Shown here piece by piece: positions 39,849 to 61,100 of a DNA stretch of 64,000 nucleotides; within the stretch, counting starts at the first letter, position 1, and every line of letters begins with the position of its first letter. Where the stretch lies: positions 62,001-126,000 of the forward strand of contig MU006000.1 in NCBI GenBank assembly GCA_010093745.1, read 5' to 3'. The stretch is from Piedraia hortae CBS 480.64 (lineage: Eukaryota). The notes under the pieces were generated by a model that saw nothing but the letters and a program-made list of their open reading frames with translations, was not told the origin of the DNA and searched no databases. The position numbers and the translations under genes were made by a program.

Positions 39849-40739
39849 CTCTGGTCATCGTGTGGCCTTGCTGACGCGTAAAATCACGCGCAAAGCGTTT
39901 TGCCTCGCGTCGACCCTGCGTCTCTCGTGCGCCAAGGCTGCATGTTATTGGTCGCACTACAGGTGGAGTCCCAATGTGGGGTTTCTTGGCCAGGCAAGTA
40001 GGAGAAATGCTTACGTCTTGAACGATTTGGCAGTTCGGCAGAGTCACGAGATGCTATCGTAAGCTGTCTACGGGCTTCTGATCTAGAGTTATGCATTTTC
40101 TAAAAAGAATGGACACACAAGCCACAAACCGTTCTCCAACGGTCCCGACTCTTGTTCGTTTCCTGCTACGCGTCAGCCGGTAAGAAAAACGAATGGCGCC
40201 AACTGATTCCAGGCTGAGGATGACTGTCCAGGGATTTGTTACATCTGAAGAGGTCGTTAATAAAAGGCGGAAATTATGACAGAATGACATGGGACCGAAC
40301 GGTCGGAACTTATGCGACGAACTACGCCCAAAACATCTAGAACGTACGGCCGCAGATCCTGCTGTGCCACGCGGATCAGCCCGCTGATGCAAATACCCGA
40401 ACGGTGCACGCGGACAATGCAAACATCCGAGCGATGCACAGCTTACTCACGTGGAAAACGAGATCTGGGGGACAGTGTCTTGCTTGCTCAATTTGCGCGG
40501 CACTGGGCCATAAAGGCCGCTGGGCTAATTACGGCATCCAACGAGACTTCCGCGAACCCGACTGGCAGGTGTACAATTAACACAGGTCACGTGCGCTGCA
40601 CACAAGCGCCCGCAGGCGCGCCTTTCCTATTTGGGCAGTGGCCTCGACTGTCTCCCTGTCCCTCCCAGACCAACTCATTCTTTTGCCCAGTCACAGAGGC
40701 AGGGCAGCCTTCAAGCCCGTCGCTCGCTTCACCACCATA

Positions 40740-41761
40740 ATGGACTACAACGGCTACGGACGCGCTCCGGCCGCCAAAAAGTTTCGCGTTGGCAACATCT
40801 TTGGCGACCCGTTCAGCCTGGCGACGGTCGGTATCGCGATTGTGCGTGTTATTCCATGAACCTATAGCACCTATGCTGACTAGAGGAAAAGTGCGGCTGG
40901 CTCATCGCCTTTGTCAGTTCAATTATTGCTCAAATCTCCCAACGTAACCAGTATCCAAACTACTCATGGTGGGCGCTCGCATACATGTTTTGCGTAATCA
41001 TCGGTGTCGCAACCGCCATCGGCATGAATGCTGTGTATACGTACCACGTTGCGATTGTGGGTTTCCTTGCGGCTGGCCTGGTCTTCACCACGTCCTCTGT
41101 AAATTCTCTCATTTACTGGGCGCAGGGTGCAAAGGAAGCAGCAGCTGCGGGATTCATTCTTCTTTCCATGGTTTCGGTATGTTCATCTGCAAAAGCTCTT
41201 TGGAATTAAGCTAACCATCAGATCGTTTGGATGTTTTATTACGGATCCCAGCCCACTGCAGCTCATCGTCAGACTCTTGATTCTTTCGCCTTACACAAAG
41301 ACCATGCTCCCACCAGCCGCAACAGTCGCCACATGACGCAGGCTTACGGCCGGCCCGAAACGACTCACTCGGCGGGTCCTCCGCAGATGTACAATTCATC
41401 TCAGCTGGCCGGTTTCGAGACGTCTTCACCAGTTACGGGCTATGCCGGTGGACCGGCCGGTGCGCCCGCGCGCGAAAACGGGCCGAATTTTCCCCAACCT
41501 GCCACTAGCCAGAGCAATTTGGCACCCCATTCTGGCCCCGGCACGGGCACCGTAACACCTGCGGGAGCCCCATCGACAGAGTATCCTTACCGGGCAAAGG
41601 CAATCTACAGCTACGAAGCCAACCCTGACGATGCCAACGAAATCTCATTTAGCAAGCACGAGATCCTCGACGTTAGTGACGTTAGTGGACGCTGGTGGCA
41701 AGCCAAAAAGGAGAACGGCGAAACGGGCATCGCACCCAGTAACTATCTCATTCTGCTGTGA
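40740..41761 (+). CDS. SHO1: High-osmolarity signalling protein Sho1 (4 TM + SH3), 3 exons
   Basis: [30 protein letters not shown]3 [23 protein letters not shown]...GIAPSNYL. Introns 40842-40891 and 41177-41221. Confidence 0.95.
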
Positions 41762-42056
41762 GCGTTTACTTGTTTGTCCTTTTGTGTGCCCTGAGCGGCT
41801 ATTGTCGTGACGAGTTGGCATGGCGCTGGGCGGACGGGAACGATACCAGAGGCCATTTTACTCGGTCTGGAGTTCTGGTTTCTTTTGTAGTGATGACTGC
41901 TTCTATTACAGGCATGATCTGTTTGGGTCAGAGGCCTTGTATTCGGTAAAAAAAAAACATCCCTCAATGGCTTGACTTGAACCTTCAGTCCAGCAAGAAT
42001 CCTTCAATGTCTAATTTGAGTCTGACTGTTCTGCCATTCTGCAAAAAAAATTACGT

Positions 42057-42128
42057 TGCAACCATCGGGAGTCGAACCCGAGCCTGCTGCTTGGAAGGCA
42101 GCAATCCTGACCGTTAGACCATGGTTGC
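42057..42128 (-). tRNA. tRNA-Gly(TCC)
   Basis: GCAACCA/TGGTTGC acceptor stem, anticodon arm GCTGC-CTTCCAA-GCAGC, GGTTCGACTCC T-arm, downstream T8 Pol III terminator (42043-42050). Confidence 0.96.
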
Positions 42129-42449
42129 GTGTCACCGTTTGTAATGAAGCGCGTTGTGTTTATATCCTTGGTTGATAACGCCTTGATGATAACTGCTTCC
42201 TTGCAGCATGAAACAGTCACCACAGTTCATTGGGAGATAAGAGTACTTTAAAGCATTGTGCCCGATGCTGCGCTGTGCTCAAAAGGTCCCCTCTTTATTG
42301 AATGGCTTGCCTGTGCTCCTGCACAATCCTTTTCAGCATGGCCTCGTCATCCTCGTGGAGGCTGTGCCTGCAAAAGCAACTAAGCCACATCCTGTCAACA
42401 AAAAACAGGGGCCTACAGTAAATCCCCCGCAAACTGTTCCCAAACCACC

Positions 42450-43354
42450 ATGGCCGACCGCTGCACAAAAGTTACACCACAATGCCCCGTTGAAGCGACG
42501 GTGTATGGCTACAGGCCGAACCTGGGCGGCAACGCCTTTTTCCTGGCGATATTTGCCATCTGTACAGTCGTTCAAATTGTCCTTGCGCTGAAATACCGCG
42601 CCCGACGATCGTTCAGTGTCGTCATGGCTATTGGAACGGCAGGCGAAGCGATCGGCTACGCAGGCCGAGTGATGATGCATTCCAATCCGTGGTCAGGCCC
42701 GGGGTTCAAGACGCAGATTGTTTGTTTAATCTTCTGCCCTACTTTCCTCGCCGCAGCCATCTACCTCACCCTCAAACACCTTGTCATCCACTTTGGAGCC
42801 ATCAAGTCGCGTCTGAAGCCCCAGTTGTACACGTGGATCTTCGTCTCATGCGATATCGTGTCGATCCTCACGCAGTCGGCTGGCGGAGGTGTCGCAGCCT
42901 CGGCGGAGGACAACCCAAAAACTGTCGAACTGGGTGACAATCTGATGATCGCTGGCCTCGCGTTTCAGGTGTTCACCATGTTTGTGTGCATGTGTCTTGC
43001 CGCTGAGTTTGGGTACAAGGTGTATCGTCAGCCGGTTGGTGTTGAGAAGTCGAGAGAGTTGTCGGGGAAGTTCAATTACTATGCCATTTGCTGTTCGGTT
43101 GCGTTTGTGGCAATCTTTATCCGATGTGTTTATCGGTTGCCTGAGATGGCAGGCGGATGGGGTAATTCACTCATGAGAAACGAAACGGCGTTTATGGTTC
43201 TGGATGGAATGTGAGTTGCTTTTTCAGATTGTGCGAGTGACATGCTGATGTGTTCAGGATGATTGCCATTGCGATCATACTGCTTACAATCGCTCATCCT
43301 GCGATCTTCTTCCCGGAGGCTAGTCAAAACAGCCTGCCTCGACTTGGGTCATGA
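42450..43354 (+). CDS. RTA1/RSB1-family multi-TM protein (lipid-translocating exporter-like)
   Basis: YGYRPNL, GEAIGYAGR, PTFLAAAIY, CDIVSILTQSAGGG, IRCVYRLPEMAGGW, FMVLDG. Intron 43211-43257; last exon MIAIAIILLTIAHP. Confidence 0.9.
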
Positions 43355-43768
43355 GCGGTTCATGGGACACGAATGCGTTTTAAGTACTATGTTTTTTTGA
43401 CCACAGTGATGCTCTTGACTCGCTACTGGCTTTGTCGTTGCGTGGAGGAAGGACATGCACATTGCGAAACTTCTGAGAGTCGGCCATTCCGAGGGCAAGT
43501 TGCACCTCGAGAGGAAGTATCGAGCTTATACATTACGAGTTATGAACGTATAGAGATTTCATTAGCACCCCACTCCAGCCATGCATTGCACATTCTTATA
43601 AAGCTTGCTTTACCTGGGGTATCAGTTGCAACCTGGTCGACATTTATCTAGGGATACTGTGGATGCTCTTACAAAATACCTCGAACCAACAAAGTTACTG
43701 CAATGCTGACATGCTACATCAATTGTAACGATACGTCACACCTCATTCCTTCCATACAGCGAAAACTC

Positions 43769-46715
43769 TCAAGCCCCCGACCACTGTTTATATGCACCGA
43801 ACAACTCCTCCAGTGCGATCGCAGACTCCCATCCATACCACTGTCCTATGGTACTCCGGCCAGCAGGACGGTCGCCTCCACCCGCCAACCAGAAACAGAT
43901 GGGCGCCAACAGAAGCAGCAATCCAGCCACAATCAGTCCCTGGACACGTCGGCTGGGCCTGCAGTCTCTCAATGACTAATATTAAGTCTGAAGTCCTCAG
44001 CTCGGAATTTCTGAGCTCGGGGGTCCCTGGATCCGAGGCACCTAACCCGCCCTCTATCCGAGGCCTACCCTCCGTCACAACGACCTCAAGTCTCGGCCGC
44101 GCTGCCTGAAAACACTTCTTCAAATGCGCACGCACCTCCTCCAGGCCCTTAACGGTACGCACCACCCGCTCCTGATACAGACTTCGCAACTTCTGAAGCT
44201 TAGCCTCGCTCTTGGCCCACATAGAGTTGGGCTTTTTTCGTCGTCGAGGCAAGTTCCTTCTGCAGTTCTTCGAGCTGCTTGTTCGCATGCTCAAACTTCT
44301 GTTCTTTGAGCCGAATGCTCGTCCGTTTGTTGTTTCTGTAATTGTCGGGCTCCATTTCAGTCCTCCGCTGTTTCCTACCCTGGGCCTTGAGTTCTTTGGT
44401 CAGGATTTTGACTCTTTGTTCCAGGTCAGTGCAGTTATGGACAGACCGGTCTAGCTGCGCGTGGAGCTGTCCTTCCCTCTGGCTCTGCTGTGCTTCAAGC
44501 TGCTCATCCCGCCTGCTCCGTTGCGCTGTGCTCACGGCAGCAAGCTCCGCTTCGCGCTCTTCAAGCCGGGTATATAACTCTTCAGCTTCTTGTTCGGTGA
44601 GTTTGGACTTGGCCTTTTCGGTGGCCAGCTCCTTGCTCTGCAGCTGTAGTTGCGACTCAAGACTCGACTTCTTGGGCATCTTCGTCCCAAGCTGCAGATT
44701 AGCCGCGTCTAGGTCTTCCTCGAGCTGTCGGGTTCTTCTTCTCGGGTCTTTGCTCGTCTGCTCACTTGTCGCTTTTGTGCTTGATGAATCTGCCTGTCCT
44801 GCGTTCTGCTCAGGGTCTTCAATCTTTGTCATGTAATGTTCAATCGCATGCTCAAGAGCGAAAATTTTTGTTGTCGGAAGTTTGTTGTGCCTCGGTGTCA
44901 TGAAAATGAAGTCGTTGGCTTTATATAAGCTTTTCTTAGTCGTTTTGATCTCTTCTTCGGGCTCTTGGACTTTTTGCTCGCTTGTTGAGAGCTTGAACTG
45001 CAAGCCTTCTGTGTTGGAAAGATTTGTTTTCTTAGCCGTGTCCAGCTTCTGCTCAAGCTCCTGGATCTGTTTCTTGAGATTTTTAGTCATCCGCTCGCTT
45101 GCTGAGAGCTTTGACTGCAATTGTTTTGTGCTGGAAGGATCTGTCAGTGATTTCTCAGTTGCGTTCCGATTTTGCTTAAGCTCTTGAACCGTTGTCTTGA
45201 AATTTTCAGTCGTTTGCTGGTTAGCTGAAAGTTGTGATTTTAGATCCTGTACCTTGGTAGGTTCGCTTTGCAACTTGAGATTAGCCGCTTTCAGCTTCTG
45301 CTCATGCTGTTGTACTCGTGCGTTGAGCTTTACAGTTGTCTGTCCACTTGTCGAACGTTGTGATCCTAAATCTTTTATGTTGGTAGAACCGCTTTGCAAC
45401 TTGGAGTTGGACTCTTCCAGTTTCTGCTCAAGCTGTTGCTTCTGTGCTGCGAGATCTAAAATCTTCTGCTCACTTGTTGAAAGCTGTGACTTTAGAACTT
45501 TTGTATTTGTAGCCGCCTCTAGCTTCTACTCAAGCACTTGGATTTGTGTCTTCTGACTGAGAGACAGTTCCTCGCTGGCTGCAAGTTTCCGTTTTTCCTC
45601 TCGCAGTTCAATTCGCAGTGCATGGCTCTGCACTTGGTCATTTGTTTGTGAGACCTTAGCAACCGTGGAACCACACTTTACAAATTGTTGGCGAAGATCT
45701 TGAACTTCTTGATCTGTTTGTTCGCCTCCTGAATTCTGGCGGAGCCTCTCCTCATGAGTTTTGATCGTTTGCTGTGCCACTCGCATTATTTCATTGGCTT
45801 TTTTTAGTTGCTTCTCCAGCCGCCTTGTCCTTTTAAAATGATCTCGCAAACGATTGTTTTCTTGCCGTGTTCCATCCATCTGTGCACGCAGTTGCTCGAG
45901 CTCAGTCTGCTTAGTCTGAGAGGCCTCCTGCCATTGCTGCTTTTATCAAAGACAGTGGTGGCTGCATTCAACTTGTTTTTCAATTCCTCATTCTGTTGAC
46001 AAAGGTTGTTGAACGTAATACAGGCATCTTGCATGACTTTTTCAAGCTTTGTCTCCAACTGGCTATTCGCCTGAATCACCCCATTCATTGTTGCACGGTC
46101 TTTCCCCTGCTCTTGACGCAAGCTACTGAGCTCCGCCACAGCATCCTCCTTGTCCTGGTATAGGTCTTACAATTGCTTTTCATCGACTCCACTGGTATCG
46201 GTGGCTGTGGTAGCGGCAATCAACCGTTGATTTATTGTTTCGTTCTCGCGGCGAAGACTATCGACTACTCTCTGAGCTTCATTTCTGATCTTATCGAGCT
46301 CTTGTTGCAACTGCGTCGCGGTTTCTTGCGCGTGCAACTTTTCTGCCTGCAGCTGATCGACTGTCTTAGTAGCTTCCTGCTTGACTCTGTTCAGTTCCCG
46401 CTGAAACCGGTCTTCTCGACCTTTCACAAGGTTACTCGCACTTTTCTGTTTTCTTAATAGGTTATATGCTCCGCGCAGATGGGTTAGCTCTATCACGGCC
46501 TCCTGATACGCTGTACCGTTGCTCTCTTGATACTTAGCTTCAATTTCACGAGCAAACTTTTCAGTCGATTCCAATTGGAGCTTCAAGATCTTCTCCTCCT
46601 CATGAGCCGAGTCATTGACTTGCCTGACTTCATCACCCCACTGAGAAAGCATCTCCATATTGGTCTTCTTGGCTTGTTTTGGGGTGTGCCCAGAAGAACG
46701 TTGTTTGCCATCCAA
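43769..46715 (-). pseudogene. Disrupted long coiled-coil gene with ~42-aa repeats and a C-terminal TM segment
   Basis: Consecutive ORFs join through in-frame stops (TAA 46167-46169, TAG 45526-45528) and frameshifts near 45945, 44230 and 43970. Ends in GLIVAGLLLLLAPICFWL. Confidence 0.65.
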
Positions 46716-47567
46716 TTGTGATGGACGATCTTATCCCACTCGCCGAGCATGTTGCACATGGGGTCTTGGAATCTAATAGTCCCAAATATCAGTAGCACCC
46801 CTGCTCGTGTTATGGATTCCATAAGATGCCAAAGAAATGGCTCTGGAGCCCAGCCTGATTTCGATGAACCGTCCTTGTTGTGTTTTACCGTAAAGAATCC
46901 TCGTCAATGTTGTTGATAGCTGTTGCCGCTATGAAAAATCACATCTTCCACGTCACCGAATGGGCAGAATTCCAAACAGAGGCGAATCATCTTTTCCCTC
47001 TTACTTCGCTCGGGGATCCACTGTATATTGGTTTGAGACCAGTTGCGTGAAGCACGATCGATCCTCCAATTCCGGAGCCTGAGAATATTTTCTGCGCCCA
47101 CCCGGTTGCGTACACGGTAGGGAATCATGACTGCGACCGGGATTTTTTTGTTTCCCACTTCCTCACTGTTCTTGTTCGGAGGGGTCGTCCAAGCAGTCGT
47201 CTGCTCAGCCAGGTAAGCGGTTTTGACCGCCATTCGGTCGCAACACAACTGCACCGAATCCTCCTTCTCCGATGCCCCAGCCTCCCATCCAGGTGTCGGG
47301 CATATGAAACCCTTTCCTAGCCTCCAGCTGTCTATAACGCCTCTCGTCGTCAGCCTCTTCGAGTCTAAATTCCAGACGATCGAGCTCAAGCTGTAGTGAG
47401 GGTATAACTTTCTGCACCATGCTTGCATTTATCTCGTTGTGAAGCTGTATCAGAGCCTTCAATGCTGATTTGGTCTTCCTCAACCCTGTGTCCCATCTTG
47501 CGTGCTTCAACCTATCCGCTGGTTCAATGGCATTGCAGATCCTTTGGAACTCCGTGTCACAAAGCAT
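46680..47567 (-). pseudogene. Protein kinase remnant (subdomains I-VIb)
   Basis: IGEGGFGAV (G-loop), MAVK, RLCLEFCPFGDV (hinge), APEPFLWHL and a decayed catalytic loop IVHHNWMANNVLL, spread over frames with a stop. Confidence 0.7.
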
Positions 47568-48141
47568 GTATTGCGTACACAGACTTTACATCTGCAACAC
47601 GAACTCCTCATGACCATCAAGCCCTTGCTCAATCCATAATTGTTCCAATTGCTTCTTATCATAGCGAATGTGGTCCTTGAGTTTGTTCTTCAGATACAAA
47701 ATGAACATCACCCAAGCAATCACCTGCGGACTTGGCCATGTCGAGTTGCTAGGAAAGTCAGGTCACGAGTGAATGTTGAAAGTGCTCAGACGTTGGCTAG
47801 TTACGGAAGGAGTTGCCTGGAGGCTCATCAAAGCGGCTTTGTTGGAATTGAAAGAAACAATGACAAAGACCTTGTGTGCAAGTGCAATGTGAACATCATG
47901 GGATAGGTTCGATTGCGAATGGAATAGGTCTTAATTCCCATTTGCTGTTGTAGTGTAGATGACAGTTGTTTGAGGCATTGGACTCTCCACTCTGTTCAAT
48001 TGTTGAATTGAATGCTGGACAAAGGAAGGAGTTTTCTTCCGGACCCGGCAAAATAAAGCACGCCACACAAGCAGTTGCAGTTCTCTCATATACATCTATC
48101 ATATATTTGAGGGAAGTTCTGCAGCACGTATTGCCAGGCCG

Positions 48142-49006
48142 TCAGCTTAGGCTGATCAAAGCCTCTAACATCTTCTCTCTCGTCTCATTCAATAGCTTAT
48201 TTACATCGTCCTTGGTTAGACCTTTCGTCTGTATGGGCTCCAACACCTTTGTCTCTACCTTGCCGGGTTTGAAAGTTTTCTTCTTCGTATTAAAAAGGTG
48301 AGAGTAGTTAGCCGCAACAACAGGAACTATGGGCACCTGAGCTTGAACAGCCAAGTGAAAGGCTCCCTTCTTGAAAGGGAGAAGGGTGGGGGAAGGAGAA
48401 TAGCTCCTCGTGCCCTCGGGGAAAAGGAAGACGGACTGCTTGTTGGTATGCATCTGCTCAGCAGCACCAGCGAAAGCCGCAAGAGCTTTTGTGTGAGATT
48501 TTCGTTGAATAAAAACTGCTTTTGAAAGCAACACTGCCACCATTAGAGAACTTGGGTCAGCATGACATGGTCAACTTACTAAACCAGCCCAGGAAGGGAA
48601 CGTATTTCAAACTAGACTTTGCCATCATGCTGCAGTGCTTCGGGAAAGTGTAGCCAAGCAGCAAAACATCTAATTCGCTTTGATGGTTTGCAACGAAAAC
48701 GGCCGGACGGATAGAGTGGTAGTTGCCCGGGTCCGAGACAACAAATTCTATGCCAGTGACATACCACATGGTCCATTTGAAGGCGCGGGCACCCGCCCAT
48801 TGACCCAACGCCCGCTGGCCAGAGAATGAAAGACAGATACTGGCAATGATGCCAATAACAGCCGAGGCTGTGAGGGCAAAGGCGCTGGCCAGCATGCGCC
48901 CGTAATACTCCAGCGCCGGGAGGGACAGAGCCTTGCCGCTCCAAATTAGCATCGTCACTGTGATGGCCAGAAGTGCAATGGCGATGGGAGCCCAATACCA
49001 GTCCAT
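48142..49006 (-). CDS. SLC1: 1-acyl-sn-glycerol-3-phosphate acyltransferase
   Basis: NHQSELD, AKSSLKYVPFLGWF|M, FPEGTRS, PFKKGAFHLAVQAQVPIVPVV. Intron 48534-48579. Confidence 0.93.
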
Positions 49007-49098
49007 TGCTAGGGCTGACAGCTACAGAATTCTACAATTATACATGTGGTGTACGCATGATTCAGGCCATTCGACAACGGCCGTAATGTGACGGATGA

Positions 49099-50180
49099 CT
49101 AAGCAGACGTCGGGATCTTCACATGTCCCCGCTTCCGGTCTTCGTGAGGGAATCCGTAGCGGTGGCCGGCTCCAGTCACGTTCTCGAACACAAAATCCCA
49201 CCTCCGTCCCTGGACCACGCGGATCCTTGCTGCGGCGTCCTCACGCCGTTTCCGCTCCTGAGCTGCGGCTTCGGCGGCTTCGGCAGCATCCGCCTGCCGT
49301 TGCAGTAGCTCCCGCTCTTCACGTGTCTTTCCTTGGTCCGTCCACCGTTGGTTCTGAACCAGTTGTGGAATTGGGATGCGTTTCTCTGCGGGAAGCAAAT
49401 CTTCCGAAAAGGCCTTGGCGGCATCCTCACGCGTGAACTGACGAGACTCTGATGTGGGATAGAAGATTTGCCGATTGGTGGCGCGGTGGACGGGAAGATC
49501 GTTGACGGATTCGTGGGGGGTTTGGGATTTGGAATAAGTTTGCGGCAGCATTGCAAGTACAGCCTCGGCGTAAGCTGTTGCAAGTGGTTTGTTCTGCCAA
49601 TATCGTCAGCAAGACCTCGTCAGTTTAAGCATTGGCGTAGAACGTTATGTCAGCCAAAATTGTGCAAATTGTAACCATGTTGGCGTCTTAAAGACTAATC
49701 GTTTATCGCTCATCACGGGAAATGTTGGGAAAAAGTCTAACTCACCTGAGCTTCCCACTGCTTCTCTACAGCCTTTAACCGCGCAACAGCAGCCACTCGA
49801 CGAGTATCGATGCTAAAACCAGCGGCGAGACTGACAATGTCGTGCTTGTGGTTTACCACAAGGTCGTATATCAACTCGCGGAACTCCTCGGACAGGACGG
49901 GCTCAGAACGAAAGTAAGGATTTTGCGGGTAGGGTCGGAGATCGCTACGTCGTTCTGCCGGTAGTTTGCCATCCTCTGCTTGCTGTTTTGTTCGGATAAG
50001 TTTGCCCGACTTATCGTAAGCTCCCAGGTAGTTTGTCGAGCCCGGCAGTGGATCGCGAAATGCTTTTCCGGGCCCCTTCAACCAAGTGCGCATCTCATTG
50101 CGGAGTCGACCCCGACTGGCTGGTGATGAGTGAAAGGAGCGTGTGCATGGCGATAATCGAGGGCTAGGTCTCAGAGGCAT
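49099..50180 (-). CDS. MRPS35: Mitochondrial small-subunit ribosomal protein mS45 (Mrps35/Bot1 family), 2 exons
   Basis: Presequence with RSFHSS, PLPGSTNYLGAYD, PYPQNPYFRSEPVLSEE, RVAAVARLK, PTSESRQFTREDAA, GHRYGFPHEDRKRG. Intron 49594-49745 (152 nt). Confidence 0.85.
49615..49720 (-). ncRNA. Intronic box C/D snoRNA with a guide for LSU rRNA
   Basis: Box C GUGAUGA (49716-49710), box D CUGA (49623-49620), short terminal stem, and 12-nt CGAUUAGUCUUU (49701-49690) complementary to conserved LSU rRNA AAAGACUAAUCG. Confidence 0.8.
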
Positions 50181-50592
50181 GTGGTCTTTCGGGATCTTTT
50201 GGGCGTCGCGGTCACTTTCCAAATGCGGTTGCGTGGACGGCGCGGCACGAGCCGAAATCATGTGCAGCATCACGTGCGTTGCTCTACATTCGATCACGCC
50301 TCGGCCCGGTCCAGCCACTCCGGGCATCTGCCCCGCATGCGGGCAACAATGCGATCTTCTTTGACTCTTTCACCTCTCCACAGGCTTTTTACGCTCTCGG
50401 TTTATCAACTACAACTTCACAATTCACTCTCGCTGTCCATCGTACGATTTAGCTTCATCACCTGTCTCTTCTGATTTAGCATCGGCGCGGCGAACGTCGT
50501 CCTGACAGGTACACATCGCGCCCCACCGGGCAGGCGCGTCGCGTCGCATCGTCGCGTTGAACTGTCGCATCCCGTCGCATTGAGACCCAGCC

Positions 50593-51753
50593 ATGGGCGA
50601 CGCTCCTTACCGCCCTCAGCAGCATGCGCCTTTCGCGTTGCCTTCGTCGCGACAGCCAGAGTCCACTTCCATCATCATACGCCACCTCCCGAGCACGACG
50701 AACCAGGAAAGCTTGCGCAGCCTGCTCATCTTCTCGGCCGACCTGCTCAACACTGACTTCACCACATCGCCGTATGCAGAAGACAGTGGGTTTTCCACGG
50801 CCACGGCCCAATTCGCGTCGCGCGGCGGCGCGCTCGAGGCGATAGAGAAGCTCAACGGCAAGCCAAACTCGACGCAAGAGGCCACTCTGCTGGTCGAGCT
50901 TTACGGCAATGACGTCCCACCGACGTCTGCGACCAGCTCCGGCTCGAACTCAGCTTCGCCACCGCTGCCGACAACATCTGGCCCGCCGTTCCCGCTTATG
51001 ACAGGCAACGGTCACGTGCGGGTATCGGGTAAGTCGACCATCAACGATGTGTCTGATGATGAGACGGGCGATATTCTGAAAGATCCGCGGGCGTATGCCG
51101 AGGCGGGGTCGCGGCGGCCAACTGCTCCGGCACAATTGCCCATCTCGCAGTTTGGACGGCTGTCGTTGAGCCCCGGCGAGGCGCGACCAGTGCCCATCTA
51201 TCCCTGGACGCGTCCCTCGTATCCTCCAGTCAATCCGGCGGACCAGAATCCGCCGTGCAATACCCTGTACGTCGGCAATCTGCCTCTGGACACGTGCGAG
51301 GACGAGCTCAAGGCCATCTTCTCCAAGCAGCGCGGCTATAAGAGGCTTTGTTTCCGCACCAAGCAGAACGGGCCCATGTGCTTTGTCGAGTTTGAAGACG
51401 TTTATTATGCGACGCGAGCCTTAGCTGAGCTTTACGGTTACCCGCTGCACAATAGCGCCAAAGGCGGCATCCGGCTCAGCTTCTCCAAGAACCCGCTCGG
51501 AGTCCGCTCAACGTCGCCGCCGGGGGCTGCCAATGCGGCCATGACGCCGCACCTTCTCAACCCGAACTACGGGGCGGCTGGAGGGGGCCCTAAGGGTATG
51601 TTCTCGGCCGTCAGCGGGCCACCACCGGGCCTGGGCATCACAACGGCCGGGATGCGACGGGTGACAACGGGAACTACGGGAGCGGACTTGTATCCGTCGC
51701 CAAGATCTTATTATTATCCGGGAATCTACACCGACTACCACATGGGACGATGA
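50593..51753 (+). CDS. WHI3: Whi3/Scw1-family RRM RNA-binding protein
   Basis: [18 protein letters not shown]...[22 protein letters not shown]...[16 protein letters not shown]. Confidence 0.88.
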
Positions 51754-51856
51754 GCAGAAAAGTTTGTAATTTAGCAGTGTAGCACGCCATATGACGACGA
51801 ATGAATCACGCTTAATCGTTACCTGTTGGCTGCATCATTGCATCATCGTTGCATCG

Positions 51857-52928
51857 TCATCTGTAGGTCCACAGCCCATACGGGCCTCGGGTGAACTTCC
51901 ACAACTTCACCGTGCCGTCTTCGCTACCGGTTCCGTAAAGCTTACCGTCGGGGCTAAAGGCTACAGTCCATATAGGACCGTGGTGGCCACGACCCATCTC
52001 GACCTCTTGGCCCGAGTCAAAGTCCCAGATGCGAACCCAGGTGTCTCCAGGGCTGCCCGTCACAACGCGTCGAGCTGACCCATTCAAGGCTGCACTGGCA
52101 ACTTCGCCGGCGGTTTCGATCTTCTTTGTCAGCGTTCCCGGACGTCCGCCATCAAAGAAGTAGATGCTCTTTCCAGCCGCAACCGTGATGATCTCCCCAT
52201 CTTTTTGTTCGTCTAGCCCGCCATTGAGCTCGCAAGAGCCCGGGTTGGCATCGAGGTCGTGCGAGGCGATGCAGGACTGCTGCCGCAAGTCCCACCACCG
52301 CATCCTTTTGTCGTCGGCAGCAGTGACCACAACATTGGCATCGCGTGTCCACACCAAGCCTTTGATAGCACCCCCGTGCTGGCCGGCACCAACCTCGTAG
52401 CTCTGAGATTCCTTCTCACCTGCCTTCGCGAGGTCCCATATACGCAGCTTCTTTTCCATCCCGCCCGTGGCTACCGTGTCCGGCTGCGCTTTTGGCGGAA
52501 AAGCTACGACGCGCACGATGTGGTTGTGCTCCAGACTCGCCAGTGCCGCTCCCGAGTGCGTGTCCCAGACTTTGGCAGTGAAATCGGCAGAGCCTGTTGC
52601 TGCCATGGCAGCATCTAGGGATAGTCTCGCGTTCCAAACTGCCCCTTTGTGACCAATGAAGGTGCCTATCCAATCACCAGTGATGCCATCACGCAGCATG
52701 GGGTAATTGTCTTTGCATGCTGATAGAAGGTAGTATTGCTCCTGCTGTCCTGGGGTCGAGATGCCGTCGGAGAAGGACAGATGGGTGATTGGACGAGAGT
52801 GGCCAACACAGGTGAGTGGCACTACCTTTGTCGCCTCTACCGCTTGTTAGCCGTGCCATGAAGCGGGAAAACAACCCACCAGACGCTACAGTGGTCTCAT
52901 CTTGCCGTGTGAAGGCAAAATCGGCCAT
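51857..52928 (-). CDS. WD40 protein, STRAP/unrip homologue
   Basis: KVVPLTCVGHSRPITHLSF, SACKD..PMLRDG.TGDWIGTFIGHKGAVW, GHHGPIW...GSEDGTVKLW. Intron 52837-52879 joins the ATG at 52928. Confidence 0.88.
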
Positions 52929-53168
52929 GACTTGTTTGGCAATGGAACCCGTCTCACGCCATCTTGAGTTGGTGGAGACAAAGACACGTGAAGTGCTTGG
53001 GGCATGGTGGGGCAAACGGGATCGGGCCGCAGCTTAGCGGGCCGCAGTGATTGGGATTGGGGCATCCGACGATGCTGATTGGCTCGCACGTGTCTCTCAG
53101 GAGACCCTTGCAACTGCGGCTTGTTTGACAACACCGACTCCGCCCAATGCGCCGGTCCCCTTCCTAAC

Positions 53169-54707
53169 ATGTCACCGCCACCTGTGACCGAAGACCTGGA
53201 TTACTACAAGCGGCAGTATGAGCAGCTGGAGGCTGACCTCGCAGAATTTCAGGCGTCCAGCAAGGAACTTGAAGAGCAACTGGAACGCGACGTCGAGGCG
53301 GCGGAGAAGAAGGAGCGGCGGCTAAAGCAGCAGGTGGAGACGTTGACGTTTGAGGTGGAGGAATGGAAGGGAAAATACCAGAAGAGCAAGGCCGAGGCAA
53401 ACCAAGCGCTGAATGCGCTGCAGAAGGAGGTGACGGAGTTGCGCGAAGCCAGAAGAGCCGTCGAAATGAGGCTGCGGGACACCGAGGTGGCCAACGATGA
53501 CTACGAGCGCCAGGCACGACATACCGAGAGCAGCTTGGAGGACCTCGAGAGCAAGTGCAACGTCGCTATCGAGCGCAGCGTCCTGCTGGACGGTGAGCTG
53601 AAACTGAGCGAAAGAGACCGAGAAGCGCTGCGGATCGACAACCAGCGGCTTCGGGATGAGCTGGGAGACCTCCGCGTCGAGAACGACATCACGCTGGACA
53701 AATTGCGACTGGCAAACCGGACCGTGGAACGGTTACGATCGCGCAATATCACCCAGCTGAGCGTGAACCTGCGTCCGCGGAGCCCGGCCAGCGAGATGAG
53801 CGGCTTAACGTCGCCAACGGCTTCAACACCGCCGCCCAAGTCAGACTCCATGTCCGAGGCGCCGACGCCACCGTCTCCACCGCTCTCAGACGTTGCGCCG
53901 GCTGCTGCAAAGACACCGTCGCAGCCACGTCCCGCTACTCTGACGCGCTCAGTAGTCCAGACCACGCCTCGTCCCGCAGCCTTCCATGGCCAGCGAGTAA
54001 CGCGACGCCCTCCGAATCCCTCGGCATCGCACTGCTCAACGTTTTCAGGCCCCAGCGTAGCCGAAGATGGGCTGCCGCGCTCTGACTCGCTCTACCAGAT
54101 CAAGCAGCTCCGCGGCCGCATGCAGCGCATCGAGGAGCGGCTGCAATCTGCGCGCTCCAAATTGCCAGCGTCCCGTACCCCAGTCACTTCGCCGGTAGCG
54201 GTGTCCCGGGCCGACTCGATCGTGCCCTCTTCCGTTACGGTGCGGAGCAAACCGTCGCTTAGCAGCACAAAGTCATCTGTTACGGGCTCAATCTCAGACG
54301 AGCCTGGGGCAGCATTCCCCAGACGCATTGCAAGTGGCTTGCCTCGGCCGTTGTCGACAACAGACAGACCACCAGGCTTGGAGAGGCACCTGTCAGTCTT
54401 TAGCCGCACGCAAGGGCCGCTGTCACCAACCCCGACGTCACACGTTCGTCGTCCATCCAGTCGCGTGGAGTCGCGACCGCCGGATGACGGGGTCTCGGCA
54501 AGCGCAATGCCCGGGCGGCCAAAGAGCGGCCTGGCCGGCATGTACTCTACAGTCAATTATCCGCCGCGCGGCCACCGCCCCAGCAGCAGCATGTTTGAGC
54601 GGAACAGCGTAGCCATTGACCGAAACACGCCTTCTGCCGCCCAAGGGAAGATGGGCCCGCCACCGCGACGGAAGCCACCCGGAGGAGATGTGGGCGAGAC
54701 GTTCTGA
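53169..54707 (+). CDS. nudE: Nuclear distribution protein NudE/RO11 (dynein regulator)
   Basis: YYKRQYEQLEADLAEFQASSKELEEQLERD coiled coil, LRDTEVANDDYERQAR..ESSLEDLESK, SLYQIKQL..RMQRIEERL..ARSKLP. Confidence 0.92.
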   Translation: MSPPPVTEDLDYYKRQYEQLEADLAEFQASSKELEEQLERDVEAAEKKERRLKQQVETLTFEVEEWKGKYQKSKAEANQALNALQKEVTELREARRAVEMRLRDTEVANDDYERQARHTESSLEDLESKCNVAIERSVLLDGELKLSERDREALRIDNQRLRDELGDLRVENDITLDKLRLANRTVERLRSRNITQLSVNLRPRSPASEMSGLTSPTASTPPPKSDSMSEAPTPPSPPLSDVAPAAAKTPSQPRPATLTRSVVQTTPRPAAFHGQRVTRRPPNPSASHCSTFSGPSVAEDGLPRSDSLYQIKQLRGRMQRIEERLQSARSKLPASRTPVTSPVAVSRADSIVPSSVTVRSKPSLSSTKSSVTGSISDEPGAAFPRRIASGLPRPLSTTDRPPGLERHLSVFSRTQGPLSPTPTSHVRRPSSRVESRPPDDGVSASAMPGRPKSGLAGMYSTVNYPPRGHRPSSSMFERNSVAIDRNTPSAAQGKMGPPPRRKPPGGDVGETF

Positions 54708-55090
54708 TTGACGGGCTACTTAATCGATTGAGTGCAGATGGGGCTGTTGATTGATTAATGTGGACAGCCAACTAACGATTGGCGTAAACGATGATCCGTA
54801 ACCTTTTCCAAAAATATTTCGTCTGACCCTGGTTCGGTTGACAAGCGCATCCCTCTGTCAAGGCGGCCACGGCTGCAGGAAACTCGGAGATCGTCTGCTC
54901 CACATCCCGGGAATCCGCCACGCTCAAGGTTTAAGGCTCAACGGATTTCATAGTCCTTTATCTCCCCAAACCTAAACACGGTCAGCTTGTAGCCTTTTTC
55001 CCCCATCGTCATCCAGTTGAGATCCCCCGAGTCCCCCCGCCCTCCCGCACTCCCACTCAACTCCCACCACCACCTCACCACTACCCCACT

Positions 55091-55150
55091 ATCACCATCA
55101 CAATCACAATCACCATCGCCATCGCCATCGCCATCGCCATCACCATCACC
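55091..55150. repeat. Hexamer repeat (ATCACC/ATCACA/ATCGCC) x10 upstream of ACC1
   Basis: Read directly from the sequence; ends 45 bp before the ATG. Confidence 0.85.
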
Positions 55151-55194
55151 ACTGATTCCCCATCCCCCCCCTCATACAGTCTCCGCCCTCCAAC

Positions 55195-58100
55195 ATGGCT
55201 CACGCCGCAGGAGGAGAGACCAACGGGGCCAACGGTGATGGCTCGTCGCCTAGTTATTCTGCAAAACATCAGATCGCCTCTCATTTCATAGGGGGCAACG
55301 AGCTGTCCAAAGCTCCACCGAGCAAAATAAAGGATTTCGTGGCAGATCACGATGGCCACACGGTAATCACCAACGTAGGCAGCTCCCCACACAAGTCAAA
55401 GACCTGTGACAGCTGACATGATAGGTGCTCATTGCCAACAACGGCATTGCGGCTGTCAAAGAAATCCGATCGGTGAGGAAATGGGCATACGAGACGTTTG
55501 GCGATGAGCGAGCCATTCAGTTCACCGTCATGGCGACGCCTGAGGATCTTGCGGCCAACGCGGACTACATTCGGCTGGCGGACCAATACGTGGAGGTGCC
55601 GGGCGGAACGAACAACAACAACTACGCCAATGTAGAGCTTATCGTGGACGTTGCGGAGCGGATGAACGTACATGCGGTGTGGGCAGGCTGGGGACATGCG
55701 TCGGAGAACCCGAAGCTTCCCGAGTCTCTTGCTGCCTCGCCCAAGAAGATTGTCTTCATTGGACCGCCGGGGTCGGCCATGCGGTCGCTCGGCGACAAGA
55801 TTTCGTCGACCATTGTTGCCCAGCACGCCGGCGTGCCCTGCATTCCCTGGTCCGGTACGGGTGTGGACGAGGTCGAGGTGGACAAGCAGGGCATTGTGAC
55901 GGTGGCAGACAGTGTGTATGCCAAGGGATGCGTGACTTCGGTGCGAGAAGGGCTCGAGGCAGCGCGCCGCATTGGTTTCCCCGTCATGGTCAAGGCCTCG
56001 GAAGGCGGCGGCGGCAAGGGCATCCGCAAGGTGGAGCGCGAGGAGGATTTTGAGCAGCTCTACAAGGCGGCTGCGAGCGAAATCCCTGGCTCGCCCATCT
56101 TCATCATGAAGCTCGCCGGGAGCGCCCGCCATCTCGAAGTGCAGCTGTTGGCCGATCAGTATGGAAACAACATCTCCATCTTTGGCCGCGACTGCTCGGT
56201 TCAGCGTCGTCACCAGAAGATCATCGAGGAGGCTCCCGTCACCATTGCGAACCAAAGGACGTTCCAGCGCATGGCTGATGCTGCAGTTGCGCTCGGCCGG
56301 TTGGTGGGCTACGTGTCGGCCGGGACCGTGGAATATCTTTACTCCCATTCAGACGATCGCTTCTATTTCCTGGAGCTGAACCCTCGTCTCCAGGTCGAGC
56401 ATCCAACGACGGAGATGGTTTCTGGCGTCAACATTCCAGCTGCTCAGCTCATGGTAGCCATGGGAATTCCCCTCCACCGCATCCGTGACATCCGTTTGCT
56501 CTACGGCGCTGATCCCCATACCACAAGCGAGATTGATTTCAGCTTCAGCAAGGAAGACACCTCGCTAAAGCAGCGGCGACCGCAGCCAAAGGGCCACTGC
56601 ACAGCCTGTCGCATCACATCAGAAGACCCCGGCGAAGGCTTCAAGCCCTCTTCTGGCACGATGCACGAGCTCAATTTCCGCTCTTCATCCAACGTTTGGG
56701 GCTATTTCTCGGTCGGCGCAGCCTCGTCTATCCACAACTTCTCAGACTCGCAGTTTGGACACATTTTCGCCTATGGAGAGAACAGGCAGGCGTCGAGGAA
56801 GCACATGGTCGTGGCCCTCAAAGAGCTCAGCATTCGTGGTGACTTCCGCACCACGGTCGAGTATCTGATCAAGTTGCTGGAAACGCCCGCTTTTGAAGAG
56901 AACACGATCACGACCAGCTGGCTTGATGAGCTTATCAGCAAGCGTCTGACGGCCGAACGGCCCGATCCCATGGTTGCTGTTGTTTGCGGCGCTGTGACAC
57001 AGGCGCACATCAAGAGCGAGCAGTGTCTCAACGACTATCGGACAGGGCTCGAAAAGGGTCAGGTGCCCAGCAAGGACATCCTGCGCACCGTCTTTCCCAT
57101 TGAGTTCATCTACGAAGGGTACAAGTACAAGTTCACGGCCACGCGGTCAAGCAGCGACAGCTACACTTTGTTCATCAACGGCAGTCGTGCCCTTGTCGGC
57201 ATTCGGCCCCTGTCTGACGGCGGTCTGCTTGTCTTGCTTGGTGGTCGTTCGCACAACATTTACTGGAAAGAAGAGGTTGGGGCAATCCGTCTTTCAGTTG
57301 ATGGTAAGACATGTATGCTGGAGCAGGAAAACGACCCGACCCAGCTGCGCACGCCGTCTCCCGGCAAGCTCGTCAAGTATTCGGTGGAGAACGGCGAGCA
57401 TGTGAGCAAGGGACAGCCATTTGCTGAGGTGGAGGTGATGAAAATGTACATGCCGCTATTGGCCCAGGAAGACGGCGTGGTCAATCTGATCAAGCAACCG
57501 GGTGCCACGCTGGCCGCAGGTGACATTCTCGGAATCCTCGCCTTGGATGATCCCTCCAAAGTCAAGTCTGCTCAGCCATTCTTGGGCCAGCTGCCCGAAA
57601 TGGGCCCGCCCACGGTCCTTGGCACCAAACCCCCACAGCAGTTTGCCTATTTGTTCGGCGTCCTTCAGCATATCTTGCAGGGCTACGACAACCAAGCCAT
57701 CATGGCTCAGACGTTGGGCAGTCTGATTGAAGTGCTACGTGATTCAGAGCTGCCGTATGGCCAATGGAGCGCCCAAGCATCGGCTTTGCACTCCCGCATG
57801 CCGCAGAAGCTCGATGCAGCCCTTGAACAGATTGTTGAGCGAGCCCACGCTCGTCACAGCGAGTTTCCCGCGAAGCAGTTGAGCAAGGCGGTCGAGCGGT
57901 TTATGGCAGAGAACCTGTCAGCCGGCGATGCGGAGCTGCTTCGTACCCAGCTGGCCCCTTTGCGCGAGATAGTCGAGAAGTACTCCGAAGGCCTCAGGGC
58001 GCACGAGTTCTCGGTCATGGTGGACCTCTTTGAAGAGTACTACGCCGTCGAGAGCGTCTTCTCTGCGCGCCAAAACCGCGATGAAGAAGTCATCCTTGCC

Positions 58101-61100
58101 CTGCGTGATGTCAACAAGGACAAGGTTAGCAATGTGGTCCAGACGGTCCTGTCTCACACACGGGTCAACGCAAAGAACAATCTTATTGTTGCCATCTTGC
58201 AAGCCTATCGACCCAACCAGCCTGGCATCGGCAATGTCGCCAAGTATTTCCGCCCATCTTTGCATAAGTTGGCCGAACTCGAGGGCCGCCCAACAGCAAA
58301 GGTCGCCCTCAAGGCACGAAAATTGCTCATTCAGTGTGCCATGCCATCGCTTGAAGAACGCACGACTCAAATGGAGCACATCCTGCGCTCGGCCGTGCTC
58401 GAATCGAAGTATGGCGAGAGCGGCTTTGAACACCGCGAGCCCAACTTCGAGGTGATCAAAGAGGTGGTTGATTCCAGGTACACCGTCTTCGATGTGCTGC
58501 CTCACTTCTTCGTGCACTCGGACCCTTGGGTTTCGTTGGCCGCCCTCGAGGTCTACACTCGTCGGGCTTATCGTGCTTATCAGCTGACGTCGATCGACTA
58601 CATGACAACAGGCGATGTGCCCTACGTCTTGTCTTGGGGCTTTGCCCTCCGTAAGCTTGGCGAATCTGCTTTTGGCTTGCCCATCCAATCGTCGTTCCCT
58701 TCGGCGCCTGGCACGCCAGCTGCTGGTGGATTCTCTCGCGTGCATTCGCTTGGGGACTTTAGCTATCTAACCCGCGAGGGAACAGCCGGCAACGAAACTG
58801 TTAGGAGAGGTGCGGTCGTGCCCGTGAGCTTCATCGACGAGGCAGATGAATATCTCATGAAGGCGCTCGAGTGCTTCCCTGCTGGCGGCAAGTCCGAGAC
58901 AGACGGTTTGACGCCAGCTGCGCGTTCTCCTGGCAAACGCGCTTCCGGTACCACCAAAGCGCCCACATCCGATGAGTTGACGGCCGTGTGCAATGTCGCT
59001 GTCCGTGATGCAGAGAGCCTGGACGATGGCGAGATTCTGAGTCGACTTGTGCCAATCGTAAAGGAGCATCGGGATGAGCTGCTGTCTCGTCGCGTGCGCC
59101 GCCTCACATTCATCTGTGGTCACCGTGATGGCACTTACCCGGGCTACTATACCTTCCGAGGCCCGTCTTATGCTGAGGACGCCAGCATCCGGCACATTGA
59201 GCCTGCTCTGGCTTTCCAGCTGGAACTTGGGCGTCTGGCAAAGTTCAAGATCAGGCCCGTCTTCACGGAAAACCGCAACATTCACGTGTACGAGGCGGTT
59301 GGCAAGCAGGCGGAGAACGACAAGCGATACTTCACTCGGGCCATTGTGCGGTCTGGCCGTCTTCGCGAGGACATGCCCATGGCAGAGTACATGATTAGTG
59401 AGGCAGACAGGCTGATGAATGACATTATGGACGCTCTGGAGATTATTGGCAACAACGGATCCGATATGAACCACATCTTCATCAACTTCTCGCAGATGCT
59501 GCCGATGCAGCCGGAAGAGGTTGAGCAGGCATTGGCGGGCTTTCTGGACCGGTTCGGACGGCGCGCCTGGCGACTCCGCGTTACTGGTGCGGAGATCCGG
59601 ATTGTGTGCCAGGACGTCCAGGGCCAGCCATACCCCATCCGCGTCACGATCAACAACACGTCTGGCTTCGTCATCGACGTCGACCTGTACGAGGAGCGCA
59701 AGTCCGAGAAGACTGGTGAATGGTATTTTCACAGCATCGGCGGCTCAAACAAGACGGGCTCCATGCACCTGCGGCCTGTCAATACGCCCTACGAGACAAA
59801 GGGCGCCCTGCAGCCGAAGCGGTACAAGGCTCACATAATGGGCACGCAGTACGTGTACGACTTCCCCGAGCTGTTCCGCCAAGCAGTGGAGAACAGCTGG
59901 AAGGCGACGGTAGCTCAGCATCCAAGTCTGAAGGAGAAGCAGCCGAAGCAGGGCGAGTGCATCGAGTATAGCGAGCTCGTTCTCGATGAAAAGGAGAACC
60001 TGCAAGAAGTCAGTCGAGAGCCAGGCACCAATACGATTGGCATGGTTGGGTGGATCATCACGGCAAAAACGCCAGAGTATCCGCGTGGTCGACGCTTTAT
60101 TGTCATTGCCAACGACATCACGTTCAAGATTGGCAGCTTTGGGCCGCAGGAAGACAAGTTCTTCCACAAATGCTCACAGCTCGCCCGCTCTCTTGGCATT
60201 CCACGCGTGTATCTGTCGGCCAACTCGGGTGCACGTATCGGCATGGCAGAGGAGCTGCTGCCACACTTTTCGGTGGCTTGGAAGGACCCCAAACGGCCCG
60301 AAGCCGGGTTCGAGTATCTGTATCTGACGCCGGAGATGAAGGCGCGGTTCGAAGATGCATCCGTCAAGCACGTTTTGACGCAGCCAATGACCGTAGGCAA
60401 TGAGACACGCCATGTCATCACCACCATCGTCGGAGCCGAAGACGGACTTGGCGTAGAGTGCCTTAAGGGCTCTGGTCTCATTGCAGGAGAGACATCGCGG
60501 GCGTACGACGACATCTTCACAATCACGTTGGTGACGTGTCGTTCTGTTGGCATCGGCGCTTATCTTGTGCGTCTTGGACAGCGTGCGATCCAGATTGAGG
60601 GTCAGCCCATCATCCTGACGGGTGCTCCGGCCATCAATAAGCTGCTCGGGCGGGAGGTGTACACGTCTAACCTGCAGCTCGGAGGCACGCAAATCATGTA
60701 CCGCAACGGAGTCTCACACATGAAAGCCAACGACGATTTTGAGGGAGTGTCAAAGATTGTGCAATGGATGTCGTACGTGCCGGATCGCAAAGGCAATCCG
60801 GTGCCGATATCGCCATCAACCGATACGTGGGATCGTGAGGTCAAGTTCTTCCCTCCGCCACAAAAGGCGCCGTACGACGTGAGACACCTGATTGCTGGCC
60901 AGGAGACGGATGACGGGTTCTTGTACGGCCTCTTCGACCGTGGCTCGTTTGAGGAAACTCTTGGGGGATGGGCTCGGACGGTGGTTGTTGGCCGCGCACG
61001 TCTTGGCGGGATCCCCGTCGGCGTCATCGGTGTCGAGACGCGGGCAGTAGAGAACGTGTCGCCAGCGGATCCTGCCAATCCCGATTCGATTGAGCAAGTT

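What the first reader, a model, noticed from the sequence alone, without database searches (positions are those of the whole stretch)
49594..49745. Box C/D snoRNA hidden in the single oversized intron (mitoribosomal mS45 gene)
SEEN: this intron is 152 nt, while the other protein-gene introns here are 43-51 nt. It contains GUGAUGA...CUGA with a short closing stem and CGAUUAGUCUUU followed by AAGA and CGCC. KNOWN: LSU rRNA has the conserved GGGGCGAAAGACUAAUCG; methylation falls opposite the 5th nucleotide upstream of the D/D' box. INFERENCE: with AAGA as a degenerate D', the target is the A in AAAG-A-CUAAUCG, a few bases downstream of the yeast snR60 Gm908 site. The CGCC after D' could extend pairing to GGCG. 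The D-box guide (...CCAAUGCUUAAA) has no target I can assign confidently. A cytosolic-rRNA guide hosted by a mitoribosomal gene is notable.
Basis: partly seen in the sequence, partly recalled or inferred. Interest (0 to 1): 0.7.

Follow-up and report, generated by a model that had tools for sequence, protein, structure and literature searches.

The report
Known snoRNA in mitoribosomal gene intron
An intron of a fungal mitochondrial-ribosome protein gene carries a small guide RNA that should methylate one adenosine of the cell's main ribosomal RNA; this guide is already known from Neurospora and fission yeast, so the find is sound but mostly ordinary, apart from the same host intron being kept across distant fungi.

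Summary
The 152-nt GT-AG intron (49745-49594, minus strand) of the mS45/Bot1 gene is spliced out in a public contig. It holds a box C/D snoRNA orthologous to Neurospora Nc CD39 and fission-yeast snR83: same guide, same degenerate D' box AAGA, same C' box. The predicted target, the A of AAAG-A-CUAAUCG (budding-yeast number 917), is 98.6% methylated in S. pombe by mass spectrometry. In metagenomes 16 of 118 C-box-plus-guide hits carry AAGA and C', and all 16 lie in mS45 genes at this intron position, some probably basidiomycete. Two corrections: the homologous D box is probably the first CUGA (49653-49650), giving about 73 nt rather than 100; and the CGCC extension is not conserved (0 of 16). 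No D-side target was found. Expression of the small RNA and this organism's own rRNA were not seen. Verdict: new member of a known family; the conserved mitoribosomal host was not found in print in my searches.

The parts
49746..50180 (-). mS45/Bot1 host gene, coding exon 1 (145 codons; start ATG inferred)
   Evidence: Open frame; Pfam PF12298 profile 2-66, E 7.2e-19
49594..49745 (-). Phase-0 GT-AG intron, 152 nt, host of the snoRNA
   Evidence: Joint 49593-49746 in a contig of run X1; frame restored on splicing
49648..49721 (-). Predicted mature snoRNA, about 73 nt, orthologue of Nc CD39 / S. pombe snR83 (ends inferred)
   Evidence: Profile hit 49715-49662, E 2e-10; C-to-D span 67 nt; Nc CD39 is 73 nt
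49710..49716 (-). Box C, GUGAUGA
   Evidence: Sequence
49690..49701 (-). D' antisense element, 12 Watson-Crick pairs to LSU rRNA; the U at 49694 is the D'+5 position and faces the target A
   Evidence: 12 perfect pairs in 18 of 18 LSU loci tested, which were selected for holding this motif; position
49686..49689 (-). Degenerate box D', AAGA
   Evidence: Same place in Nc CD39 and in 16 of 118 scan hits against about 0.5 expected
49672..49678 (-). Degenerate box C', AUGGUUA
   Evidence: Shared with Nc CD39; core UGGUU in 16 of 16 AAGA loci
49654..49671 (-). C'-to-D spacer; no antisense element detected
   Evidence: Best duplex 9 pairs with 2 G-U, matched by 150 of 300 shuffles
49650..49653 (-). 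Probable box D (first CUGA after C')
   Evidence: Spacings inside the homologue ranges
49620..49623 (-).
   Evidence: Spacings outside the homologue ranges; a 5-pair flank stem with 2 G-U can be drawn by eye (sequence)
49605..49610 (-). Probable branch site GCUGAC (A at 49606)
   Evidence: Consensus match 12 nt before the intron's end; inferred, not mapped
49099..49593 (-). mS45/Bot1 host gene, coding exon 2 (164 codons plus stop)
   Evidence: Pfam PF12298 profile 67-162, E 2.5e-21; PDB 6yw5 mS45

Best explanation
The intron encodes the orthologue of the fungal box C/D snoRNA Nc CD39 / S. pombe snR83. Mechanism: the mS45 pre-mRNA is spliced (shown); the snoRNP proteins Snu13, Nop56, Nop58 and Nop1 assemble on boxes C/D and C'/D', and the debranched intron is trimmed to about 73 nt, from just 5' of box C to just 3' of the first CUGA (inferred from general knowledge of intronic snoRNAs and from homologue spacing). 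The 12-nt element before the AAGA D' box pairs with LSU rRNA, and Nop1 2'-O-methylates the adenosine opposite the fifth nucleotide (budding-yeast number 917; site shown in S. pombe, inferred here). The D side is a spacer without a guide in this species. The intron is long only because it must hold the snoRNA and its spacers.
For: Nc CD39: 73 nt, cloned in a cDNA library, intronic, D' guide to 26S Am897, S. pombe homologue snR83; its sequence shares guide, AAGA+C and CAUGGUUACAA with the window. S. pombe 25S Am949 in the fragment AmCUAAUCG, 98.6% methylated, assigned to snR83. 16 of 118 scan hits have AAGA one base after the searched 11-mer, a feature not in the pattern; 16 of 16 also have the C' core and a later CUGA. 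All 16 lie in mS45 genes: 13 by tblastn, 2 more by Pfam, 1 by reading; 0 of the other 102 gave a tblastn hit. Guide duplex reached by 3 of 300 shuffles. Only 1 of 5 genome matches to the guide 11-mer has the box context. First CUGA: C'-to-D 18 nt against 13-27 in 14 distinct homologues and 15 for L011 once its C' is placed correctly; D to 3' splice site 56 against 49-93 and D to branch A 43 against 33-69 in 13 of 15 measurable loci.
Against: No small-RNA data: the mature RNA was not seen. This organism's rRNA is not in its assembly, so the target is taken from other eukaryotes' LSU. No Rfam family matches. The profile hit stops at 49662, before either CUGA, so the D box is chosen on spacing only. 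The window's spacers are shorter than in homologues (5' splice site to C 30 against 40-78). The base before the first CUGA is G, whereas 14 of 15 homologues have U; the second CUGA has A there, like Nc CD39.
Confidence: 0.9

Rival explanations
1. Same snoRNA and target, but it ends at the second CUGA (49623-49620), is about 103 nt long and may carry a second guide of unknown target.
For: Perfect CUGA; a short flank stem with 2 G-U pairs can be drawn; whole-intron folding pairs 5' flank with the bases just after this CUGA (z -0.85, not significant). D-side guides do occur in relatives. L011 shows the family tolerates an insertion.
Against: C'-to-D 48 nt, D-to-branch 13 nt and D-to-3' splice site 26 nt are all outside the homologue ranges. 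Best rRNA duplex 8 pairs, matched by 231 of 300 shuffles; nothing of 8 pairs or more on own U2 or U6. The motif reads as a branch-site consensus.
Confidence: 0.2
2. A decaying or silent copy: the boxes persist, but the compacted intron no longer yields a working snoRNA.
For: Intron 152 nt against 188-209 in 11 homologues and 177 in two more; short 5' spacer; no D-side guide; no expression data.
Against: Guide, D' and C' are intact while the spacers between them differ from all homologues. No second copy with boxes in the assembly. The intron stays three times longer than the 6 neighbouring introns.
Confidence: 0.06
3. Chance motifs in a long intron, or a redundant snR60/U80-like guide for Gm908.
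For: C box plus a 12-nt rRNA complement is not rare in the window (4 of 61). The snR60 homologue Nc CD48 pairs with an overlapping rRNA stretch.
Against: Conservation of D', C' and host intron. The register puts D'+5 on A917, not G908; Nc CD48 uses its D box and a different register.
Confidence: 0.02

Closest known systems
Neurospora crassa Nc CD39 (Liu et al. 2009, PMC2780460; EU780962; named Nc_CD_39 in Canzler et al. 2018, PMC5824354)
   Same: Intronic; same D' guide, AAGA D' box, CAUGGUUACAA C' region; same predicted target (26S Am897); 73 nt, matching the short model.
   Different: Nc CD39 has a predicted D-side target (26S Am375) whose guide is not in the window's copy. Its host gene is not named in the text and files I read, so I could not check that it is mS45.
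S. pombe box C/D snR83 and 25S Am949 (Diao et al. 2014, PMC4138321; Taoka et al. 2015, PMC4605285). Not the budding-yeast H/ACA snR83.
   Same: Same modified nucleotide, shown by mass spectrometry at 98.6%; site reported absent from human, plants and budding yeast.
   Different: Its sequence and host locus were not seen (supplement out of reach); identity rests on the shared target and on Liu's Table 1.
RPL7/snR39-snR59 and NOG2/snR191 introns (Lim et al. 2021, PMC8476143)
   Same: A snoRNA-bearing intron at a conserved position across distant fungi (82% and 72% of species there).
   Different: Those hosts serve cytosolic ribosome biogenesis; this host is a mitochondrial ribosome protein. My sample is 15 distinct loci, not 263 genomes.
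snR60 / U80 / Nc CD48 (Gm908)
   Same: Pairs with an overlapping LSU stretch.
   Different: Uses the D box, targets G908, has a second guide for Am817; not this family.

Membership tests
Box C/D methylation-guide snoRNA | Box C (RUGAUGA) near the 5' end and box D (CUGA) near the 3' end | tested here: met
   GUGAUGA 49716-49710; CUGA 49653-49650 or 49623-49620. Which CUGA is used is inferred.
Box C/D methylation-guide snoRNA | Antisense element of 10 or more pairs ending at a D or D' box | tested here: met
   12 Watson-Crick pairs, 3 of 300 shuffles as good; target taken from other eukaryotes' LSU
Box C/D methylation-guide snoRNA | Boxes and guide conserved while spacers drift | tested here: met
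   Alignment of 15 loci; D' and C' were not in the search pattern
Box C/D methylation-guide snoRNA | Stable small RNA bound by Nop1/fibrillarin | not testable with these tools
   Only one contig-level run was listed
Box C/D methylation-guide snoRNA | Target nucleotide is 2'-O-methylated in this organism | not testable with these tools
   Shown in S. pombe only; own rRNA absent from the assembly
Nc CD39 / S. pombe snR83 family | D' guide to the A917-equivalent site in the same register | tested here: met
Nc CD39 / S. pombe snR83 family | Degenerate D' AAGA(C) and C' (A)UGGUUA at the same spacing | tested here: met
Nc CD39 / S. pombe snR83 family | Same host locus as the Neurospora and S. pombe members | not testable with these tools
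   Their genomes could not be fetched; host not named in what I read
Nc CD39 / S. pombe snR83 family | Nc CD39's predicted D-side guide to 26S Am375 (not a family-wide feature: D sides differ among the 15 loci) | tested here: not met
   Compare
snR60 / U80 (Gm908 guide) | D-box guide placing D+5 on G908, plus D' guide to Am817 | tested here: not met
   Register falls on A917; no Rfam match

The most novel reading that the evidence does not exclude
The snoRNA has stayed in the same intron of the mitoribosomal mS45 gene since before basidiomycetes and ascomycetes split because the link is functional: one transcript and one splicing event tie the supply of a mitochondrial ribosome protein to a fungus-specific methylation of the cytosolic ribosome, while the D side acts as a slot that different lineages fill with different guides. 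The conserved host itself is likely (about 0.85); the probability given is for the functional coupling.
Probability: 0.12. Interest if true: 0.6.

Novelty: new member of a known kind. Interest (0 to 1): 0.22.

Why it matters
For annotation: it names the guide of a methylation reported absent from humans, plants and budding yeast, in a family that Rfam does not pick up here, and corrects its probable 3' end. For evolution: it adds a candidate to the short list of snoRNA-bearing introns kept in place across distant fungi, with a mitochondrial rather than cytosolic ribosome host, which makes a simple test possible (intronless gene plus snoRNA supplied from elsewhere). The snoRNA and its target are not new.

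Tried and rejected
Rfam, whole window at gathering score and intron at E up to 10: no snoRNA family match. Own rRNA: none found in the assembly by pattern or by RF02543. Folding of three spans: no better than shuffles. D-side targets: none above chance for either CUGA against partial ascomycete-type 18S, 5.8S and 5' LSU, longer LSU of other eukaryotes, and own U2 and U6; own U1, U4, U5 and a fungal 3' LSU half were not tested. Extra pairing by the D'-C' loop: CGCC can extend the duplex here (-15.6 to -22.1 kcal/mol), but it is in 0 of 16 homologues; homologue loops are A/C-rich and pair with the adjacent G-rich rRNA no better than with its shuffles (445 of 500 as good; 68 of 561 other LSU windows as good). 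Profile search of 100 of the 102 non-AAGA loci: best 18.9 bits, as expected from the shared search motif, no further clear member. Sequencing runs: no RNA holder on record listed. Chaetomium rRNA modification paper PMC12723226: passages and two supplement searches gave nothing usable on this site. PMC10324135 passages gave no distance rule. Literature searches for Am917 and for Mitrovich's Candida set returned 0 papers. My script placed the window's branch point at the second CUGA (29 nt) and misplaced C' in L011; both were recomputed.

Full report
Observation. Removing it restores one frame of 145 plus 164 codons. The two exons hit Pfam Bot1p at profile positions 2-66 and 67-162, and exon 2 hits the mS45 chain of PDB 6yw5. 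A contig of run X1 joins 49593 to 49746; the other 6 joints listed for 40001-60000 skip 43-50 nt. That is one run, its RNA status is a guess, and 20 of 64 kb were laid.

Is it more than chance? Not on the window alone. 4 of 61 UGAUGA sites have a perfect complement of 12 nt or more to my rRNA pool within 40 nt, folding is no better than shuffles, and Rfam finds nothing here. The case rests on comparison.

Identity. Table 1 of Liu et al. 2009 (PMC2780460; I read parts 1-2 of 6 of the text, passages, and supplements 1 and 4 in full) lists Nc CD39: 73 nt, from a cDNA library, intronic, D' guide to 26S Am897, homologue of S. pombe snR83. Its sequence has the same guide, then one base, then AAGAC, a 6-7 nt loop and CAUGGUUACAA, as in the window. 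Am897 lies 9 nt after the snR60 site Gm888. Taoka et al. 2015 (PMC4605285; part 2 of 4 of the text, one supplement row and part 3 of 4 of the table) report S. pombe 25S Am949 in the fragment AmCUAAUCG at 98.6%; the row's number 917 I read as budding-yeast numbering because Gm940 carries 908 in the same column (I did not see the full header). Diao et al. 2014 (PMC4138321; passages only) assign Am949 to snR83 and say the site is absent from humans, plants and budding yeast. Canzler et al. 2018 (PMC5824354; passages only, supplements not available) note a Candida albicans snoRNA with a homologous target region. So both family and modification are known.

Homologues. 16 of 118 have AAGA one base later, against about 0.5 expected; all 16 have a C after it, the C' core UGGUU and a later CUGA. 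L054 and L067 are near-identical, leaving 15 distinct loci. 13 of 16 hit the window's exons by tblastn, L011 and L035 hit Bot1p by Pfam, and L094 was judged by reading its exon ends. 0 of the other 102 hit, although 38 of all 118 loci had only about 300 nt of flank and tblastn missed three true cases, so that zero is a floor on sensitivity. In 15 of 16 the donor follows the equivalent codon in phase 0; in L094 the snoRNA sits in the second of two abutting intron units at that position. L011's exon is nearest an Atlas cluster whose commonest phylum is Basidiomycota (score 0.91, phylum known for 16 of 59); L016, L035 and L094 resemble it, so I infer, without a tree, that the host intron predates the split of basidiomycetes and ascomycetes. 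A profile from the 15 loci hits the window once, 49715-49662, E 2e-10. In the own genome only 1 of 5 matches to the guide 11-mer has this context.

Target. The own rRNA is not in the assembly. Eukaryotic LSU fragments lying in prokaryote assemblies (52 loci, selected for the motif) give 12 Watson-Crick pairs in 18 of 18 tested; 3 of 300 shuffled guides do as well. The fifth base before AAGA is U49694, facing the A of AAAG-A-CUAAUCG. That some of these loci are ascomycete is my recalled reading of a signature next to the motif.

Which D box? Homologues end at the first CUGA after C'. Homologue ranges: C'-to-D 13-27, span 67-87 (15 loci), D to branch 33-69 and D to splice site 49-93 (13 of 15 loci measurable). 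The first fits all four, the second none. That intronic snoRNAs need some tens of bases before the branch site is recalled, not read here. Against: the profile hit stops before either CUGA, neither has the U that precedes D in 14 of 15 homologues, and the second has a short flank stem. I put the short form at about 75-80% given a real snoRNA. Neither candidate D side has a target above chance (150 and 231 of 300 shuffles).

Extra pairing. CGCC can extend the duplex in this species, but 0 of 16 homologues and Nc CD39 lack it, and homologue loops fail a composition control. Possible here, not a family feature.

Mechanism. Shown: splicing, boxes, complementarity, conservation, methylation of the site in S. 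pombe. Inferred from established box C/D biology: snoRNP assembly on the intron, debranching and trimming, Nop1 catalysis by the D'+5 rule in this organism.

Novelty. The snoRNA is a new member of a known family. The conserved mitoribosomal host was not found in print: one search returned 1 unrelated paper, one search returned 0, and Bot1/MRPS35 does not occur in the text or supplement of Lim et al. 2021 (PMC8476143; passages, a supplement search and its last part), nor Bot1 in Diao's main text. The supplements of Canzler and of Diao, which give genomic locations, were not seen and may name it. Conserved snoRNA-bearing introns are themselves known (RPL7, NOG2), and an unchecked note on this genome reports another guide in a succinyl-CoA ligase intron, so a mitochondrial host need not mean anything special.

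Verdict: real, correctly read in its essentials, probably shorter than proposed, known family. Interest 0.22.

Noticed in passing
L094 plus-strand 195-570 (gene on minus): Two abutting intron units (199 and 177 nt, AG|GT with no exon between) at the host position. The second holds the CD39 orthologue; the first holds a C/D-like paralogue with the same AAGAC and C' motifs but new guides. Its D guide pairs over 10 bases with the LSU stretch around S. pombe Um2305, with D+5 on that U. Looks like tandem duplication of a snoRNA intron with retargeting.
   Followed up: partly
L035 1445-1880: The 177-nt snoRNA intron abuts a 71-nt intron-like unit, then a 3-nt exon (GAG), then a 185-nt intron; predicted from sequence only.
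   Followed up: partly
L065, L066, L077, L109, D side of the snoRNA: A shared D guide pairs over 11-12 bases with LSU about 50 nt before the main target (tested for L066 and L077), predicting methylation at about G860 in budding-yeast numbering, a site not in the part of the S. pombe table I read.
   Followed up: partly
L016, L035, L094, D side of the snoRNA: D guide matches the guide of Neurospora CD4 for 18S Cm49 (13 perfect pairs for L016): a guide that is on a separate snoRNA in Neurospora rides on this one in probable basidiomycetes.
   Followed up: partly
L011 771-866 (minus): A small hairpin (-5.3 kcal/mol) is inserted between D' and C'.
   Followed up: no
L017, L053, L060, L088: By eye these look like other box C/D snoRNAs with the same guide but other D' boxes, with no mS45 hit; possibly other lineages' guides to this region.
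   Followed up: no
window 31313-31505 (+) and 42057-42128 (-): U2 snRNA and a tRNA gene. The U2 copy has one base missing in the branch-point-pairing region relative to the Rfam consensus.
   Followed up: no
window about 26200-26500 (+): Sequence printed reads like a retrotransposon reverse-transcriptase region (impression from the sequence, not tested).
   Followed up: no
L125-L176: 52 prokaryote assemblies' contigs in the GTDB collection carry eukaryotic LSU rDNA, evidently contamination.
   Followed up: no
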